From a virus (taxonomy: Duplodnaviria; Caudoviricetes), in IMG/VR virus record IMGVR_UViG_3300021425_003554: a DNA stretch of 64,000 bases. One strand, 5' to 3'. The position numbers and the translations under genes were made by a program. This document shows positions 4,154 through 20,395 of the stretch, piece by piece (within the stretch, counting starts at the first letter, position 1; every line of letters begins with the position of its first letter). The notes beneath the pieces are model-generated. The model was not told where the DNA came from. It ran no database searches and saw only the letters and a list, made by a program, of their open reading frames with translations.

Positions 4154-5230
4154 TTATTTGGTTAGTTGTTCCTTATAGACTGTGTTATATCCCAACTGAT
4201 TTTTTCCAAAATCGGTCAATGTTTTCAATGCTGTTGGTGTTATAAATGATTTCAGTGTTTTCACAGCGGCATCACCGTCTGTGCCTGTTCTCCATTTGTA
4301 TTTTCCAACATTCTTTTCGATTGCCTTTATAGATTCTGGATCGTTGATCATCCTATTCAGTGCATCAACCAATTTATCTTTATTTGGATTACCTCTGTTT
4401 ACCCAAAATGCTTTTTGTAAGGCATCTCTCCAACTTTTCACAAGTTTGTATGCATCATAAAAGTCACCGCTTGGTTCAACACCGTGCATTGACTGAAACA
4501 ACTCTTCGAATGTTGGTTCAGAAAAATTAGGATCTTTGTCGTGTTTGCCGGTATCAACATTTAATAACCCATGATGGAACCAAGTGATAGCATCTCCAGA
4601 CTCTATCACAGGTGTCACGTGTTTTTTATATGCGGCTGGATTTTCTCTCGTTGCGTTTAGATCTCCTCTACGAAACGCAAGTCTCCTCTCAGATCCGCTC
4701 ATGCCTTTTACCCATACAATTTTTTCATTCCACGTTTGTATTACGTCACCGTTTGGTCCTGCCAATAACATCACAATGGCCATTATTTCCGGTGTCATTC
4801 CCGAACCCGAAGGAAATTTGATAGGACCATTTGATAGGTCTGCATTATCACGAGCACCCACAATAATGTTCAAGTTCATTTGTCCAATCGATTCCCAATC
4901 AAAATAATTGTAATCGACCGGTTCCATTAGATATGATATACCGTTACCTCCATGAGATACCAATATTGTTTTATCATCAAATCTTAATGTGTTTTGAAAT
5001 TCGTTTGGACCCAGTTGGTCTCTGGCACCTGGTTTGTAGATGAGATTGATCTTCTCACCCAAGTGTTTCTCCCATTCGGCCACAACTATCTGTGCCCACA
5101 CAGAAGTTCCACCCGACGGGTTCTGTGGCACGATTAAATTGTAATCTGCTTTTGCAATTTTTCCAAACATCACTCCCACCACAAGTATGCCAACTAGTAT
5201 GGCACTTTTTATCATTCTTTTTTTAAGCAT
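4154..5230 (-). CDS. tctC: tripartite tricarboxylate transporter substrate-binding protein (TctC/Bug family)
   Basis: Signal peptide (GKIAKA/DY), LIVPQNPSGGTSVWAQ equivalent to the Bug P..pGG..D motif, YKPGA; directly follows tctA. Confidence 0.75.
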   Translation of the reverse strand: MLKKRMIKSAILVGILVVGVMFGKIAKADYNLIVPQNPSGGTSVWAQIVVAEWEKHLGEKINLIYKPGARDQLGPNEFQNTLRFDDKTILVSHGGNGISYLMEPVDYNYFDWESIGQMNLNIIVGARDNADLSNGPIKFPSGSGMTPEIMAIVMLLAGPNGDVIQTWNEKIVWVKGMSGSERRLAFRRGDLNATRENPAAYKKHVTPVIESGDAITWFHHGLLNVDTGKHDKDPNFSEPTFEELFQSMHGVEPSGDFYDAYKLVKSWRDALQKAFWVNRGNPNKDKLVDALNRMINDPESIKAIEKNVGKYKWRTGTDGDAAVKTLKSFITPTALKTLTDFGKNQLGYNTVYKEQLTK

Positions 5231-6659
5231 AATCTATCCTGTTTTTTCTTGTTATTCCGACCCATGTTATCATTATAACACAGAGTATTATAAAAATAAA
5301 GACCGGTCTTTGAAAAATTTCATCGACCGAATGTAACGATATCAATTGGTATGACAAGTTGTAAATTCTATCACTTAAAAGATAACCGATCAACAACGCC
5401 GGTCTGCTTATTTTCATATATTTACAACCTAAGCCCAAGGCAGAAAAAATTACCAAAGTGGCAAGATCTTCCCAACCGCCGGTGTACTGCATGGTTGCCC
5501 AAATAATGATTGCTATTATGAAAGGAAAATAATAGATGTATGGTAATTTTGTTATATATCCTGCGAAATAAGCCAATCCATAACAGATAAAAGCAGTGAT
5601 GATCGTTCCTGCCAGGAAGCCAAATGTCATACTATCAAATAGTTGAGTATCATAGAACGTGTCTGGTGATCCCAGATCTATTCCTATGTACAGAAATAAT
5701 CCCATCAGGATGGCGGCAAAAGGTGCTCCCGGTATGCCAAACAACACAGTGGGAATAAAGGACGAGGCCTTCTGTGCATTGTTGGCTCCCTCGGCTCCTA
5801 TCACTCCTCTCACATTTCCATTTCCAAATTTTTCGTTTGGGTTTGAAGCAACCGTGGCACCATAACTCAACCAATCTGCCATTGCTCCACCCAGTCCGGG
5901 CAGTAGTCCTATGAACGAACCTATGGCTCCTCCGCGTATGCTATCTTTCCAGCAATGTAAAGTGTCTTTTATCCCTTGTAAAATTCCTGACCAACTGCCT
6001 TTCAATGCCGCGGCATCTACTGTCTGTTTTCTTTTACGCCAACCTTCCCATAATTCTGGTATGGCAAAAAGTCCTGCCACGAACGGCAATATCTGTACTC
6101 CATCCTCAAGGTATCTCCAGCCCATTGTGAAACGTGGCACATTGTTGGCATCCACTCCCACTAGGCCTATCACGACACCTAATATTATGGCTAGTATGCT
6201 TCTGATGTAATGCTTGGTTGATAAAAAACCCACCGTGACAAAAGCCAAAACCACCAACGCCCATAATTCCGGTATTCCCATGTACATCACAATGTTGGTA
6301 TAGTAAGGCAAAAATAAAAATGTGAGAGAACCAAATATCAATCCGTTTAGGGTGCTGGATGTGATTGCGGCACTCAGGGCTCGTGATGCTTCGCCGTTTC
6401 TTGCCATGGGGAATCCATCCACCATGGTTGCGGCCGCTGAATTGGCACCGGGTATGCCCAACAGCACACCGCTGAAAGAATCACCCGTTGTCGAGGATGC
6501 CACAACTGCCACACAGAATATCACGCCCAGGTAGGGATCGGATACAAAATAAGGCATCACACCAAACAGTGCTATCAATCCTGTGGTGGCTCCCGCGGCC
6601 GGTATTATGCCAATTATCAATCCAAAAAATATTCCGGCAAATAAAAATATCAGTTCCAT
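5223..6659 (-). CDS. tctA: tripartite tricarboxylate transporter large permease (TctA family)
   Basis: Multi-TM protein with GIIPAAG, LLGIPGANSAAATMVDGFPMARNGEA..AL, GLLPGLGG, AEGANNA...SFIP...FGIPG. Confidence 0.92.
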   Translation of the reverse strand: MELIFLFAGIFFGLIIGIIPAAGATTGLIALFGVMPYFVSDPYLGVIFCVAVVASSTTGDSFSGVLLGIPGANSAAATMVDGFPMARNGEASRALSAAITSSTLNGLIFGSLTFLFLPYYTNIVMYMGIPELWALVVLAFVTVGFLSTKHYIRSILAIILGVVIGLVGVDANNVPRFTMGWRYLEDGVQILPFVAGLFAIPELWEGWRKRKQTVDAAALKGSWSGILQGIKDTLHCWKDSIRGGAIGSFIGLLPGLGGAMADWLSYGATVASNPNEKFGNGNVRGVIGAEGANNAQKASSFIPTVLFGIPGAPFAAILMGLFLYIGIDLGSPDTFYDTQLFDSMTFGFLAGTIITAFICYGLAYFAGYITKLPYIYYFPFIIAIIIWATMQYTGGWEDLATLVIFSALGLGCKYMKISRPALLIGYLLSDRIYNLSYQLISLHSVDEIFQRPVFIFIILCVIMITWVGITRKNRIDYA

Positions 6660-6661
6660 TT

Positions 6662-7069
6662 CTATTTTTTTCTTATCATGCTTCCGTGTACTCTCACTCT
6701 GATGTGTCCGTTATAATAATCATCAGACTCCAACACCTTTCGAGCAAACTGTTCTCTGGCTTCCACGTAAGATAGTTCACCTTTGTTCTTGCAATAAAAT
6801 AATATCTCCCTGGTGAATTTATCGTTTCCTATTTTTTGTATGTCTTCCAGCAATGCATCACTGGAACCGTAATAATCTCTCCAATCGGAATCTACCTTGA
6901 ATCTTCTTTTATTTTTTCTGCCTTTTAACGGAGGTCTAGATCTTTTAAATTTTGCTAATTTTTTGCCAATATATTTCTTACCATTGGTTGTATTTGTTAT
7001 CTCGTACACAAATCCAACACAATCGTTTGGTAATTCATCGACCGGTTTTCCTTCAAACATCCACTGCAT
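6662..7069 (-). CDS. GIY-YIG-superfamily conserved T4-like phage protein
   Basis: GFVYEITNTTNGKKYIGKK, DWRDYYGSS, E.REQF; probable start MQWMFEG at 7069, just after a minus-strand TAAATA (7075-7080). Confidence 0.7.
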   Translation of the reverse strand: MQWMFEGKPVDELPNDCVGFVYEITNTTNGKKYIGKKLAKFKRSRPPLKGRKNKRRFKVDSDWRDYYGSSDALLEDIQKIGNDKFTREILFYCKNKGELSYVEAREQFARKVLESDDYYNGHIRVRVHGSMIRKK

Positions 7070-7124
7070 GATGGTATTTAAACTCAATACTGTTCACCGA
7101 ATTTTATTTGATTGTTATATAGTA

Positions 7125-7570
7125 GTGATAGGCAACAGTATCTATCCGACAGGCAAAATCAAAAAAATATTTAGGCAAACATAGCATCGCAACCAGTGAG
7201 CAAGGAAATGCGGCTAACAAGCGACAGGTGAATCCTTTGATGCAAACGGCAAAAAATGATGGGGCTCTTAGAAAAAGTTAAACCCCAGGTTTACCAAAAA
7301 CTATTATGCAAGGGTTTGGTAGGCTCGCGTTGTAATGAATGAGCAAATGGGTACAGCACAACCGCCCAACCACGGTAGCGATGTATAGTGACTGCGAACT
7401 CACCACAGGGTTCAAGTCGGTTCGGCTAGAAATAGCCGAATTGTGACTGCTCATCTACCACAGGGGACGCATAAATGCGTCGTTCCGCAAATGTAACTAC
7501 TGCGTAAAGCGTAAATTAAAAAAAAGAAACGAGCGTAAGCGAAGTTTCAGATGGCTGTAAGCCATCTTTG
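7125..7570 (+). ncRNA. candidate large structured ncRNA (ROOL-like, unverified)
   Basis: ~450 nt with no ORF covering it; at least 8 hairpins or stems including GNRA loops, a long-range CATCGC/GCGATG pair, an internal direct repeat, an extended -10-like TGTTATATA upstream and a terminal hairpin at 7549-7567. Confidence 0.65.
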
Positions 7571-7572
7571 TA

Positions 7573-8364
7573 ATGAAGTTAAGTAACAATATGCAACTAT
7601 TGTTCGATCACACCCTGGGAAAACAAGAACACACTGACCTAGTGCTGTGTCGTCCCATGGCAATCGTGGATGACACCGAAGAAGTTGAAGCACTGTGCGA
7701 GGGTTGGCTGGCATTGGATCACCCGATCAAAAAACAGGAAGTTTTTTATCAATCACGTAGCACACGCATAAACCTGGATGAATACAAACCTAGGTACAAA
7801 AAGCACGAATGGCAAGGACAACCCATAGAGATCAAAATAATCGATGCCAGCGAGATGGTGAAACTGTTGGGTCTGCCACACATCTATAAACAATACATGA
7901 CCAGAAAAAAATTTACGCAGGATTACGATCCTTTCCTACACTATAACAAACGGGATCAATTCATGCTGTTCTACATCGGTACAGCGGACAACATCGTGGG
8001 ATTCACCAAACAGAAAAGATATCGATATCAAGAGGACAACTACATTGCCCAATTGGGCGACGATCTGTTGGATCTCGCTGGGTTGGAATCCGTGATACAC
8101 GCCAACACTGTGCCCATATCATTGATCACCCTGGACATGGAAATACTCTGGGCCAGTGAACACAATGTTTCTTATTTTTACATGGGATCCGGGTACGAAG
8201 CCAGTTCCGTGTATAAATCGAACTATCGTGGATTCGAATGGTGGACGGGCACCGAATGGAGCAAGGACAAAAAACTATACAGGAGTCTATGCAAGAGAGA
8301 TTCTAGGATCGAGACTTTAAAGGATGTCGCCATGCTCCCGTCACTGATTCGAGATGACTCTTAG
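7573..8364 (+). CDS. ATE/Bpt-like aminoacyl-tRNA-protein transferase
   Basis: N-terminal EALCEGW...FYQSRSTRINL..YKP and C-terminal ILWASEHNVSYFYMGSGYE...YKSNYRGFEW match the layout of ATE_N/ATE_C; start may be MQLLF at 7591. Confidence 0.65.
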   Translation: MKLSNNMQLLFDHTLGKQEHTDLVLCRPMAIVDDTEEVEALCEGWLALDHPIKKQEVFYQSRSTRINLDEYKPRYKKHEWQGQPIEIKIIDASEMVKLLGLPHIYKQYMTRKKFTQDYDPFLHYNKRDQFMLFYIGTADNIVGFTKQKRYRYQEDNYIAQLGDDLLDLAGLESVIHANTVPISLITLDMEILWASEHNVSYFYMGSGYEASSVYKSNYRGFEWWTGTEWSKDKKLYRSLCKRDSRIETLKDVAMLPSLIRDDS

Positions 8365-19156: not shown

Positions 19157-19177
19157 TCTTTAAGATTATCTATTTTG

Positions 19178-19207
19178 AAAAGGGCGGCTTCGGTCGCCCT
19201 TTTTTTA
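19178..19207 (+). terminator. intrinsic terminator after MCP
   Basis: AGGGCGGC-TTCG-GTCGCCCT followed by T7. Confidence 0.9.
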
Positions 19208-19357
19208 TGACTTAATTTTCATTTTCTGTGTGTTTAACGGAAAAAAAATACACTCCATACAAACACAAAACCAAATCTGGTAGTTTTATTCATAATTTTG
19301 TGTTCTAAATAATTGCAAGGTTCACCTAGGTGAATCTATAATCAAAGGAGGTCCAAT

Positions 19358-19591
19358 ATGGATTATCTAAAGACTATAAAGGATTGGGCAAAAGGAATTG
19401 CCGACGTGGGAGTGAGTTTGATCGCGTTGGGAATTGTTTTAGAAATCCTTTTCAACGGTCAAGGTATTCCGTTCTGGCCGAATGTTTCTGTAATAGGAAA
19501 CGTCCAGGGCGTACTGCAAGGCTTCTCTGATCAAGGATTGATTGGATTGGTGGCAGTTTGGATTTTATATCACATCTATAATAGAAAGTAA
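19358..19591 (+). CDS. small membrane protein (77 aa)
   Basis: Two hydrophobic segments, basic C-terminus, AAGGAGG RBS. Confidence 0.75.
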   Translation: MDYLKTIKDWAKGIADVGVSLIALGIVLEILFNGQGIPFWPNVSVIGNVQGVLQGFSDQGLIGLVAVWILYHIYNRK

Positions 19592-19685
19592 ACTATAGAA
19601 ATCATATAACAATCTAGTAATACGAAACCTCATTGTGTGGTGTGACTATACAACTACACCACACAACAAATACAGGAGTGGAAAA

Positions 19686-19793
19686 ATGAAAGAACTGTTA
19701 AAAGACAAAAAAACATGGATAGCAATAGCGATCATTGTTGTCATCGCATGGTCGGTTTGGTCTGGACAACCAACACCGGAAGTTACACAATAA
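19686..19793 (+). CDS. 35-aa single-TM peptide
   Basis: MKELLKDKKTWIAIAIIVVIAWSVWSGQPTPEVTQ*; CAGGAG RBS. Confidence 0.6.
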   Translation: MKELLKDKKTWIAIAIIVVIAWSVWSGQPTPEVTQ

Positions 19794-19802
19794 TCAAAAA
19801 AC

Positions 19803-19830
19803 AAGGGCGGTGGAGACATCGCCCTTTTTT
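19803..19830 (+). terminator. intrinsic terminator
   Basis: AAGGGCGGTG-GAGA-CATCGCCCTT followed by a T run. Confidence 0.85.
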
Positions 19831-19860
19831 ATAAGCATATTTTTAAATTTATAAATTCCA

Positions 19861-19966
19861 TAAATACAGTTAGTTCAAACGTGCTTTTACTCAAGTAGAA
19901 GACTTATGCGGATGACAACCGCGTAGCCAGGAGAACTGGCATTGGACTCCTATAAGGAGAAAAAAA
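19861..19966 (+). promoter_or_regulatory. late promoter plus multi-hairpin 5' leader
   Basis: TAAATA at 19861 followed by four hairpins, the last pairing CTCCT with the AGGAG RBS. Confidence 0.55.
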
Positions 19967-20395
19967 ATGGGAAGACCTATAAGAAAAGACAAGTTTGTAG
20001 CAAGTTTTGGTGGAGACACATCTGCTAAAATCGCCGTGACGGCCTACAGAACTTTTGGTGGAGCAAAAGTTGACTCCACAACAGCATACATCGTGAACCA
20101 AAGAGGATCTAAAAAATTTAAGATCCACATGGAAGACTCTTCAGAAGCAATCATGCTTTTGAAAGCAGTTGCTCCAGGCTCATTGGCCAACGACAATGCT
20201 ACAGGATACGGTGAATTCTGTGTTCAGATCACATTAGATGACTCAACAGTTGCTTACGTAGAAAAATTCTACAACAACACTGTTCACTATGTGACTACAG
20301 GCGGAGATACAGGATCTGTACCTTACTCGTTAGGAACTGATATTCAAGGTTCTATCGCGGCTGGTAAAGGTAACATCGATATCGTATCTGAGTAA
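19967..20395 (+). CDS. probable virion structural protein
   Basis: Late promoter, strong RBS, high-expression codon style, own terminator. Confidence 0.6.
   Translation: MGRPIRKDKFVASFGGDTSAKIAVTAYRTFGGAKVDSTTAYIVNQRGSKKFKIHMEDSSEAIMLLKAVAPGSLANDNATGYGEFCVQITLDDSTVAYVEKFYNNTVHYVTTGGDTGSVPYSLGTDIQGSIAAGKGNIDIVSE

What the first reader, a model, noticed from the sequence alone, without database searches (positions are those of the whole stretch)
7125..7570. Candidate large ornate ncRNA (ROOL-like) in a T4-type phage
Seen in the sequence: this is the only long ORF-free stretch in an otherwise gene-dense window, and it is packed with stems: GATAG/CTATC (7127/7142), TGGGG/CCCCA around GCTCTTAGAAAAAG (7260/7283), TACCAAA/TTTGGTA (7292/7315), GCTC/GAGC (7323/7341), TGGG/CCCA around TACAGCACAACCG (7348/7365), long-range CATCGC/GCGATG (7185/7378), TTCGGCTA-GAAA-TAGCCGAA (7421-7440), GACGCA-TAAA-TGCGTC (7466-7481), a GC-GTAA-GC GNRA loop and a final AGATGGCT/AGCCATCT hairpin (7549-7567). 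An extended -10-like TGTTATATA lies just upstream. Established: ROOL and GOLLD are large phage-associated RNAs that form RNA-only cage assemblies, ROOL being known mainly from Firmicutes and rumen sequences. Inference from recollection only: the GGGCUCUnAGAAAAAG..ACCC and GGGUACAGC.CAAC..CCC elements resemble ROOL motifs. If so, this is a compact variant in a different phage lineage; if not, it may be a new class.
Basis: partly seen in the sequence, partly recalled or inferred. Interest (0 to 1): 0.88.

Follow-up and report, generated by a model that had tools for sequence, protein, structure and literature searches.

The report
New large structured RNA in marine phages
An uncultured marine giant T4-like phage carries a gene for a roughly 400-base, intricately folded RNA that matches no known RNA family; two short single-stranded "words" in it always mutate together to stay identical, which suggests it grips two copies of some outside partner.

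Summary
The stretch is real and not chance. Window 7172-7570 (+ strand) is a non-coding element conserved at 63-99% nucleotide identity in more than 150 viral contigs, better than the neighbouring proteins.

On 79 distinct homologues, a model of 16 helices, including a 9-bp long-range pairing, is 97.5% paired. It is 33-39% paired when the partners are slid. 39 pairs show compensatory changes. G·U pairs place the RNA on the + strand.

It matches none of 4227 Rfam families. ROOL and GOLLD give no hit even at E 10, so "ROOL-like" is not supported and "new class" is.

It is a free-standing gene. About 20 loci have it between opposite-strand genes. In most others a Bpt/ATE-fold aminoacyl-tRNA-protein transferase gene starts about 20 nt downstream.

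Two duplicated modules each carry a 5-7-nt single-stranded word (ACCACAG here). The two words are identical in 152 of 153 loci, yet the word changed at least 6 times. No complement exists inside the RNA.

Best reading, inferred: a trans-acting scaffold RNA with two identical specifier words for an external nucleic acid.

Function and transcription are unproven. A DNA control showed that the depth peak in RNA libraries is an artefact of strain pile-up. The scan noted this same stretch once before, in an overlapping window.

The parts
7172..7570 (+). Conserved extent of the structured RNA gene, about 400 nt
   Evidence: blastn and nhmmer homology in more than 150 loci starts near 7172 and ends near 7570. 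There is no conserved ORF. The structure is 97.5% canonical on the + strand and 88.2% on the - strand, with 630 G.U cells against 48 A.C cells.
7184..7243 (+). 5' domain: P1 (7184-7188/7239-7243) enclosing P2 (7203-7206/7233-7236) and a variable hairpin P3 (about 7213-7222)
   Evidence: P1 has 3 pairs and P2 has 2 pairs with changes on both sides.
7260..7287 (+). P4 (7260-7264/7283-7287) with inner hairpin P4a (7267-7269/7275-7277, loop AGAAA)
   Evidence: Three covarying pairs in P4. In P4a the pair switches U-A to G-C.
7288..7325 (+). P5, an 11-bp hairpin (7288-7298/7315-7325) whose loop supplies the 5' strand of the long-range pairing
   Evidence: 10 of 12 pairs have changes on both sides; 98.1% paired.
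7302..7390 (+). Long-range pairing (a pseudoknot, or possibly an intermolecular contact): 7302-7310 with 7382-7390
   Evidence: 9 bp, 99% paired, 4 pairs with changes on both sides, for example U-A to C-G in 37 sequences.
7325..7380 (+). Core: invariant joiner UCGCGUUG (7325-7332); P6 (7348-7352/7364-7368) with an invariant 11-nt loop ACAGCACAACC; P6a (7369-7370/7375-7376); P7 (7343-7344/7378-7379)
   Evidence: The 19-mer 7349-7367 is exact in more than 120 viral contigs. The closing pairs of P6, P6a and P7 covary.
7390..7410 (+). Module R1: GACUG-N5-UC-[word ACCACAG]-GG, single-stranded
   Evidence: The word at 7402-7408 is always the same as its twin in R2. It has no internal complement.
7418..7443 (+). 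P8, an 11-bp hairpin with a GNRA (GAAA) loop, between the two modules
   Evidence: 99% paired, 4 pairs with changes on both sides.
7445..7465 (+). Module R2: GACUG-N5-CU-[word ACCACAG]-GG, single-stranded
   Evidence: 7457-7459 matches 7402-7404 in 79 of 79 sequences across 5 states. Word positions w1-w6 are identical in 152 of 153 loci.
7466..7525 (+). P9 hairpin (7466-7481), then a variable linker rich in indels and an A-rich run
   Evidence: Poorly alignable region; P9 is about 90% paired.
7526..7567 (+). 3' domain: P10 (7526-7530/7544-7548) with inner GC-GUAA-GC, and P11 (7549-7555/7561-7567), followed by UUU(U) in many loci. P11 is a possible weak terminator or 3' end hairpin.
   Evidence: P10 has 3 and P11 has 2 pairs with changes on both sides. 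The consensus scan found no terminator. The U-run after P11 was read from the alignment.
7591..8364 (+). Gene for a 257-aa Bpt/ATE-fold aminoacyl-tRNA-protein transferase homologue ('p263'), usually the RNA's downstream neighbour
   Evidence: AF2 model with pLDDT 79. The top 30 Swiss-Prot structural matches are all bacterial Asp/Glu leucyltransferase (Bpt), TM 0.51-0.61 by query. PDB matches are ATE1, MprF and FemX. It is directly downstream in 108 loci.
6662..7087 (-). SegE-type GIY-YIG homing endonuclease gene, divergent upstream neighbour in this genome only
   Evidence: Pfam PF19835, E 2.6e-38. Upstream genes differ in other loci.

Best explanation
Window 7172-7570 (+) is the gene of a new family of large structured non-coding RNA. 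The family is found in uncultured marine and estuarine T4-like phages that are probably giant (about 350 kb).

Shown:
- It folds into about 11 covariation-supported helices plus a 9-bp long-range pairing.
- Joining strands and loops in the core are invariant.
- It occurs as a free-standing gene.
- It matches no Rfam family.

Inferred mechanism: the conserved fold is a scaffold that displays two duplicated single-stranded modules, R1 (7390-7410) and R2 (7445-7465). Each module carries the same 5-7-nt 'specifier' word, ACCACAG in this genome. The two words have changed together at least six times and have no complement inside the RNA. They therefore most likely base-pair in trans with two copies, or two identical sites, of an external nucleic acid.

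Where the Bpt-like aminoacyl-tRNA-protein transferase gene starts about 20 nt downstream, the RNA is probably co-transcribed with it and may work in the same pathway. The RNA does not depend on that gene.

The identity of the partner, and what happens to it (capture, sequestration, presentation to an enzyme or cleavage), is unknown.
For: Conservation:
- 80-93% nucleotide identity in loci whose adjacent protein is only 70-75% identical.
- An exact 19-mer occurs in more than 120 viral contigs.

Structure:
- 97.5% of 6246 cells are paired, against 33-39% when the partners are slid.
- 39 pairs have changes on both sides, against 9-14 when slid.
- 0 of 500 shuffles reach the observed covariation.
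- RNAalifold independently recovers 56 pairs, 27 of them compensated.

Strand: 630 G.U cells against 48 A.C cells.

Not coding. No Rfam match.

Free-standing:
- About 20 loci have only opposite-strand genes on both sides.
- A 196-kb relative carries the RNA but no transferase homologue.
- The transferase gene is divergent-upstream in L075, L138 and L078.

Words:
- The twin triplets are identical in 79 of 79 sequences across 5 states.
- At least 6 changes on a tree built without those columns, always matched in both modules.
- 152 of 153 loci have identical w1-w6, including a distant group with AGAUGAU.
- In one search, three very distant single loci read GGAAAA, GACAA and GGCAA in both modules.
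- No internal complement.
Against: - Transcription is not demonstrated. RNA libraries hold the sequence, but DNA metagenomes show the same 5-7-fold depth pile-up. The contigs give neither strand nor ends.
- No consensus promoter or terminator was found.
- No target was found within about 6 kb in cis.
- Simple pairing rules do not fit tRNA anticodon loops for all word variants (my own reasoning).
- The identity of the two words could instead reflect a shared protein partner, homotypic contacts or short-patch gene conversion.
Confidence: 0.45

Rival explanations
1. It is a cis-acting leader (riboswitch-like or T-box-like) that controls the downstream Bpt-like transferase gene. Binding of a ligand or an RNA to the R modules would shift pairing of CAUCU (7452-7456) with AGAUG (7549-7553), and so open or close hairpin P11 just before the start codon.
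For: - The gene starts 16-18 nt after the aligned end of the RNA in 108 loci, same strand.
- The alternative pairing is possible in 99.5% of cells.
- The protein has the fold of aminoacyl-tRNA users, as do genes controlled by T-boxes.
Against: - About 20 loci keep an intact, covarying RNA with no same-strand gene for more than 1.2 kb.
- A 196-kb relative has no transferase homologue.
- The gene is divergent-upstream in three loci and separated by 0.7-2.1 kb of other genes in six.
- The alternative pairing is invariant, so it is untested.
- There is no Rfam T-box match.
- Distant transferase homologues lack the RNA.
Confidence: 0.12
2. It is an RNA-only architectural particle, working like ROOL, GOLLD or OLE without being related to them. 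Copies would self-assemble. The 'pseudoknot' and/or the R1 and R2 words would be inter-chain bridges, and the identity of the two words would arise from same-base (N.N) contacts.
For: - Size, ornate fold, phage origin and invariant loops.
- In ROOL, a covariation-detected 'tertiary' pairing proved to be intermolecular, and OLE has a conserved A-A helix between chains (PMC12286853).
- Identity rather than complementarity is what homotypic pairs would require.
Against: - No homology to those families.
- The words are mixed sequence rather than A-runs or palindromes.
- A run of 6-7 same-base pairs of mixed sequence has no precedent that I know of.
- Nothing here tests oligomerisation.
Confidence: 0.12
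3. The two words are twin binding sites for a dimeric or two-domain RNA-binding protein of phage or host. The RNA would act as a decoy or sponge, or as part of an RNP, and the protein's specificity would drift with the words.
For: - Two similar modules about 55 nt apart suit a dimer.
- The conserved flanks GACUG and CU are shared by both modules.
- Position 6 of the word is A in every lineage seen.
Against: - Nine or more different words would need repeated re-tuning of a protein's base-specific contacts. That is easier to explain by base pairing.
- The transferase cannot be that protein where it is absent.
Confidence: 0.1
4. It is a DNA-level element such as a replication origin, a packaging site or a homing-endonuclease target, and the stems are incidental.
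For: - Very high DNA conservation.
- A SegE-type endonuclease gene sits beside it.
- Repeated AGGCAA boxes lie upstream.
Against: - Compensatory changes maintain pairing. 630 G.U cells against 48 A.C cells show selection on one strand of a single-stranded molecule.
- The long-range pairing covaries.
Confidence: 0.03

Closest known systems
ROOL RNA and GOLLD RNA (large ornate phage- or prophage-associated RNAs that form RNA-only nanocages; PMC12286853)
   Same: A large, intricately folded non-coding RNA carried by phages, with many covarying helices, a covarying long-range loop pairing and unknown function.
   Different: - No covariance-model match.
- About 400 nt against roughly 580 and 800 nt (the latter two figures are from memory).
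- No tRNA genes nearby.
- Found in marine T4-like phages.
- Sequence is far more conserved.
- Two identical co-evolving single-stranded words, which are not reported for those RNAs.
- Oligomerisation is untested.
T-box leader RNAs (Rfam RF00230)
   Same: A structured RNA with a short single-stranded specifier that varies between lineages. It often lies directly upstream of a gene whose product handles aminoacyl-tRNA. An alternative pairing with the last hairpin is possible.
   Different: - No model match.
- The word is 5-7 nt and present twice.
- Several word variants cannot pair with a normal anticodon loop (my own reasoning).
- No UGGN/NCCA element was found.
- The RNA stands alone in about 20 loci.
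Bacterial small RNAs with repeated identical seed motifs (for example the alphaproteobacterial 'cuckoo'/CcsR family and staphylococcal C-rich-loop sRNAs; from my own knowledge)
   Same: The same short single-stranded motif is displayed more than once on one RNA for pairing in trans.
   Different: Those RNAs are small (under 200 nt) and simple. Their motif is a fixed anti-Shine-Dalgarno sequence. Here the scaffold is about 400 nt with an invariant core, and the word itself changes between lineages.
freshwater-2 RNA (RF02980)
   Same: The only other Rfam-recognisable structured RNA element in this phage lineage. It is present in the window and in the 196-kb relative.
   Different: An unrelated 84-nt motif, 12 kb away.

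Membership tests
ROOL (Rfam RF03087) | Match to the family covariance model (sequence and structure together) | tested here: not met
   No hit at gathering score over the whole window. No hit at E up to 10 on 6900-7800 with permissive filters.
ROOL (Rfam RF03087) | Length near 580 nt and frequent adjacency to tRNA genes (from memory of the literature) | tested here: not met
   The conserved extent is about 400 nt. There are no tRNA genes in 64 kb or in a 196-kb relative.
ROOL / GOLLD | Homo-oligomeric RNA-only nanocage (PMC12286853) | not testable with these tools
   This needs in vitro transcription followed by mass photometry or cryo-EM.
GOLLD (Rfam) | Match to the family covariance model | tested here: not met
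   No hit.
T-box leader (RF00230) | Match to the covariance model; a specifier codon plus a UGGN bulge that pairs with the tRNA NCCA end | tested here: not met
   No hit. No internal or tRNA-compatible pairing logic holds for all word variants (and my own reasoning).
Group I / group II introns, RNase P RNA, tmRNA, 6S RNA | Match to the Rfam models, or ARAGORN for tmRNA | tested here: not met
   No hit.
Bpt/ATE aminoacyl-tRNA-protein transferases (for the neighbouring protein, not the RNA) | The family fold | tested here: met
   The top 30 Swiss-Prot structural matches are all Bpt, E 4e-9 to 3.5e-7, TM 0.51-0.61 by query, over the full length. Human ATE1 is the top PDB match.
Bpt/ATE aminoacyl-tRNA-protein transferases (for the neighbouring protein, not the RNA) | Pfam ATE_N/ATE_C sequence match | tested here: inconclusive
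   No Pfam or NCBIfam hit for the window's protein. A short relative, L110:5935-6366, scores 24.1 bits on ATE_C against a cut-off of 25.

The most novel reading that the evidence does not exclude
The RNA is a programmable two-handed adaptor. Its two identical words would capture two copies of a specific RNA, for example a tRNA or the anticodon-less tRNA-Leu-like RNA that the scan noted elsewhere in this genome. It would present them to the co-encoded Bpt-like transferase or to another enzyme. That would be RNA-specified, ribosome-independent handling of aminoacyl-tRNA, with the word acting as a lineage-specific address.
Probability: 0.1. Interest if true: 0.95.

Novelty: categorically new. Interest (0 to 1): 0.8.

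Why it matters
Large, highly structured RNAs of unknown function are rare, and each one found so far (RNase P, group I and II introns, OLE, ROOL, GOLLD) has revealed new RNA biology.

This one is abundant in nature. More than 150 viral contigs carry it, and it is shared by many co-occurring strains in marine, estuary and salt-marsh samples. Its covariation support is very strong.

It also offers a built-in experimental handle: two single-stranded words that evolve in lock-step. That pattern predicts a pairing partner which pull-down and word-swap experiments could identify.

Its frequent coupling to a phage Bpt/ATE-like transferase is worth noting. I found no published report of such an enzyme in phages. 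The coupling hints at an unexplored phage pathway that touches aminoacyl-tRNA or protein N-termini.

Tried and rejected
- **Rfam.** No family matched at gathering or at E 10.
- **GenBank phages.** No blastn match for the RNA and no tblastn match for the transferase, so there is no cultured relative in that collection.
- **Literature.** The 15-mers of the invariant loop occur in no paper. The supplements of the 10,006-csRNA survey are not held.
- **Expression from metatranscriptome depth.** Rejected after a control: DNA metagenomes show the same pile-up.
- **Internal partner for the words.** None found.
- **Cis target within about 6 kb.** None found. An apparent peak at +350 is only the V-W-Y codons of the transferase gene.
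- **Enrichment of the complement in the window.** 14 sites against 6.3 expected; 2 of the 14 are the RNA's own words (7402, 7457), and the rest looked uninformative.
- **tRNA anticodon-loop, D-loop and CCA-end pairing or mimicry.** Considered by reasoning and rejected. The AGY word variants would need a pyrimidine at tRNA position 37 or would lose CC.
- **Alternative pairing of R1 with the 3' strand of P10.** Not kept when P10 covaries.
- **Homing endonucleases as the genes inserted between the RNA and the transferase.** Not supported. The ORFs are unknown, aminotransferase-like or PhyH-like.
- **Distant transferase homologues (26-33% identity).** They have no such RNA nearby.
- **Cellular genomes.** There are 7 exact 19-mer hits against about 4 expected by chance. 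The 4 real ones lie in short contigs of MAGs with mutually inconsistent taxonomy, which is probably phage DNA binned by mistake.
- **Covariance model of the whole RNA.** Not built, because the length exceeds what the tool can calibrate.

Full report
**What is there.** Window 7088-7590 lies between a SegE-type GIY-YIG endonuclease gene on the minus strand (6662-7087; Pfam PF19835) and a plus-strand ORF that most likely starts at 7591. The window encodes a portal protein, a tail sheath and a gp46-like nuclease of the T4 kind. Its nearest named portals are those of PA5oct-like and Atu_ph07-like giant phages, at about 50% identity. CheckV figures for related records (27 kb = 7%, 196.6 kb = 55%) imply a genome of roughly 350 kb. 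The stretch is not the only long ORF-free gap. 19157-19966 is longer and contains the window's only Rfam hit, freshwater-2 RNA.

**Is it more than chance?** Searching viral contigs with the downstream protein returned 71 loci. In these the protein is 70-75% identical, yet the intergenic element is 80-93% identical at the DNA level from about 7172 to 7570.

It also occurs in four short contigs of metagenome-assembled genomes with mutually inconsistent taxonomy, which is most simply phage DNA binned by mistake.

I aligned 79 distinct full-length homologues, 63-99% identical (alignment A2). No ORF is conserved, and variability is similar in the three codon phases (0.120, 0.155, 0.142).

**Structure.** Mutual information and a helix search gave a model of 16 helices. 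On A2 it behaves as follows:
- 97.5% of 6246 cells are standard pairs, against 33-39% when every 3' partner is slid by 1-3 columns.
- 39 pairs have changes on both sides, against 9-14 when slid.
- The covariation score is 0.328, against 0.04-0.08 when slid.
- 0 of 500 shuffles reach the observed values.

RNAalifold, run independently, recovers P4, P5, P6, P6a, P8, P10 and P11, with 27 of 56 pairs compensated.

A 9-bp long-range pairing joins the P5 loop (7302-7310) to 7382-7390. It is 99% paired and four of its pairs are compensated.

Several unpaired segments are invariant: AAAAUGAUG, UCGCGUUG, the 11-nt P6 loop ACAGCACAACC, and GAAGUUUCAGAUG.

The structure tolerates G·U (630 cells) but not A·C (48 cells). 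It would be only 88.2% paired on the other strand. The folded molecule is therefore the plus strand.

Two others, GATAG/CTATC and the TGTTATATA box, lie outside the conserved element.

**What it is not.** No Rfam 15 family matches, either at gathering thresholds or at E up to 10 with permissive filters on 900 bases. That excludes recognisable ROOL, GOLLD, T-box, intron, RNase P, tmRNA and 6S RNAs. ARAGORN finds nothing. GenBank phages hold no relative. The invariant loop sequence appears in no held paper.

**Genomic context.**
- In 108 loci the RNA is followed by the 257-aa protein gene on the same strand, 16-18 nt after the aligned end of the RNA.
- In L075, L138 and L078 that gene is divergent, 74-75 nt upstream of the RNA.
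- In six loci 0.7-2.1 kb of other genes separate the RNA from the protein gene.
- In about 20 loci the RNA lies alone between opposite-strand genes, with no same-strand ORF for more than 1.2 kb. It remains fully structured there.
- A 196.6-kb relative has the RNA but no homologue of the protein and no tRNA gene.

The RNA is therefore a free-standing gene at a conserved position, between the recombination-nuclease region and the baseplate/portal block. It is not merely a leader.

**The neighbouring protein.** It has no Pfam, NCBIfam or PDB sequence match. Its AlphaFold model (pLDDT 79) matches bacterial Bpt Asp/Glu leucyltransferases over its full length: all 30 top Swiss-Prot hits, TM 0.51-0.61 by query, E down to 4e-9. 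Among solved structures it matches ATE1, MprF C-domains and FemX, which are all aminoacyl-tRNA-dependent transferases. A short relative scores 24.1 bits on Pfam ATE_C, just under the cut-off of 25. More distant homologues of this protein (26-33% identity) have no such RNA nearby.

**The odd feature.** Downstream of the long-range pairing the RNA contains two similar single-stranded modules:
- R1, 7390-7410: GACUG, five bases, UC, ACCACAG, GG.
- R2, 7445-7465: GACUG, five bases, CU, ACCACAG, GG.

They are separated by the GAAA-capped hairpin P8. The first three bases of the word take five states (ACC, ACU, AGU, AGC, GCC) and are identical in R1 and R2 in 79 of 79 sequences. Each column's best mutual-information partner is its twin.

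On a tree built without these columns the triplet changes at least six times, always in both modules. Across 153 loci located by pattern, positions 1-6 of the word agree in 152.

A distant group of variants carries AGAUGAU in both modules. Three very distant single loci carry GGAAAA, GACAA and GGCAA in both modules. The sixth base of the word is A in every lineage.

No segment of the RNA is complementary to the word. The five-base stretches just before the words stay different between R1 and R2, which argues against gene conversion.

Selection for identity is most simply explained by pairing with two copies of one external sequence. I looked for such a target within about 6 kb of the RNA and in the window and found none. 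By my own reasoning, simple pairing with tRNA anticodon loops, D-loops or CCA ends does not fit all the word variants.

**Expression.** Six metatranscriptome runs from six studies hold the sequence, and in one of them contig depth over 7155-7460 is about ten times that of the flanks. As a control I laid two DNA metagenomes on the same stretch. They show the same 5-7-fold pile-up. The peak therefore reflects many co-occurring strains that share the conserved sequence, not transcript abundance. All the data are contigs, without strand or ends. Transcription therefore rests on the covariation argument only. No consensus sigma-70 promoter or intrinsic terminator is detected, although P11 is followed by UUU(U) in many loci.

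**Verdict.**
- That this is a genuine, selected, single-stranded structured RNA of a new family: about 0.95.
- That it acts in trans through its two identical words on an external nucleic acid: about 0.45.

The rivals are a leader of the transferase gene, a self-assembling ROOL/GOLLD-like particle, a twin protein-binding site and a DNA-level element.

Its alternative, a new class, is.

**Unchecked scan notes.** They report an anticodon-less tRNA-Leu-like RNA and a permuted tmRNA elsewhere in this genome. I could not read those regions. They make a tRNA-related role worth testing but are not evidence.

Noticed in passing
window 7591-8364 (+): A phage-encoded homologue of bacterial Bpt/ATE aminoacyl-tRNA-protein transferases. 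It is recognisable only by fold: Bpt fills the top 30 Swiss-Prot structural hits, and ATE1, MprF and FemX appear in the PDB search. A family of more than 70 viral homologues was found. One literature search found no paper on such an enzyme in phages.
   Followed up: partly
window 7130-7135, 7151-7156, 7173-7178: Three direct copies of AGGCAA about 21 nt apart; the last is the first conserved bases of the RNA. Other loci also carry 2-3 (C/T)AGGCA(A/C)A boxes upstream (for example L025, L046, L156, L197). They may be a promoter or regulator site, or part of the 5' end.
   Followed up: no
window 19885-19969 (+); L202:18298-18384 (-): A freshwater-2 RNA (RF02980, 73 bits) sits at the end of the window's longest ORF-free gap. 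It is also present in the 196-kb relative. It is the only Rfam family found in either.
   Followed up: no
window 5223-6659 (-) and 6662-7087 (-): A TctA tricarboxylate-transporter subunit gene (Pfam E 7e-92), an unusual auxiliary gene for a phage, lies next to a SegE-type GIY-YIG homing endonuclease gene. Both sit between the gp46-like nuclease gene and the RNA. Relatives have other genes there.
   Followed up: no
L049:884-3001 (also L009, L019, L023, L162): In some relatives 0.7-2.1 kb of same-strand genes are inserted between the RNA and the transferase gene. In L049 they include weak aminotransferase-like and PhyH-dioxygenase-like ORFs. This may be a small operon downstream of the RNA.
   Followed up: partly
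window 7579-7585: TTAAGTA is conserved 6-12 nt upstream of the transferase start codon in most loci, and no Shine-Dalgarno-like sequence is present. It may be an unusual translation-initiation signal.
   Followed up: no
L193, L197, L198, L199 (genome contigs): Short contigs binned into MAGs labelled Neomarinimicrobiota, Pacearchaeota, Pseudobdellovibrionaceae and Betaproteobacteria carry the full RNA. In L193 and L197 the phage-type neighbour genes are also seen. These are likely mis-binned phage fragments.
   Followed up: partly
window 7155-7460, runs X14 and X4: In DNA metagenomes the conserved RNA region collects 5-7 times the k-mer depth of its flanks. Many related phage strains that share this sequence therefore co-occur in single estuary and salt-marsh samples.
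   Followed up: yes
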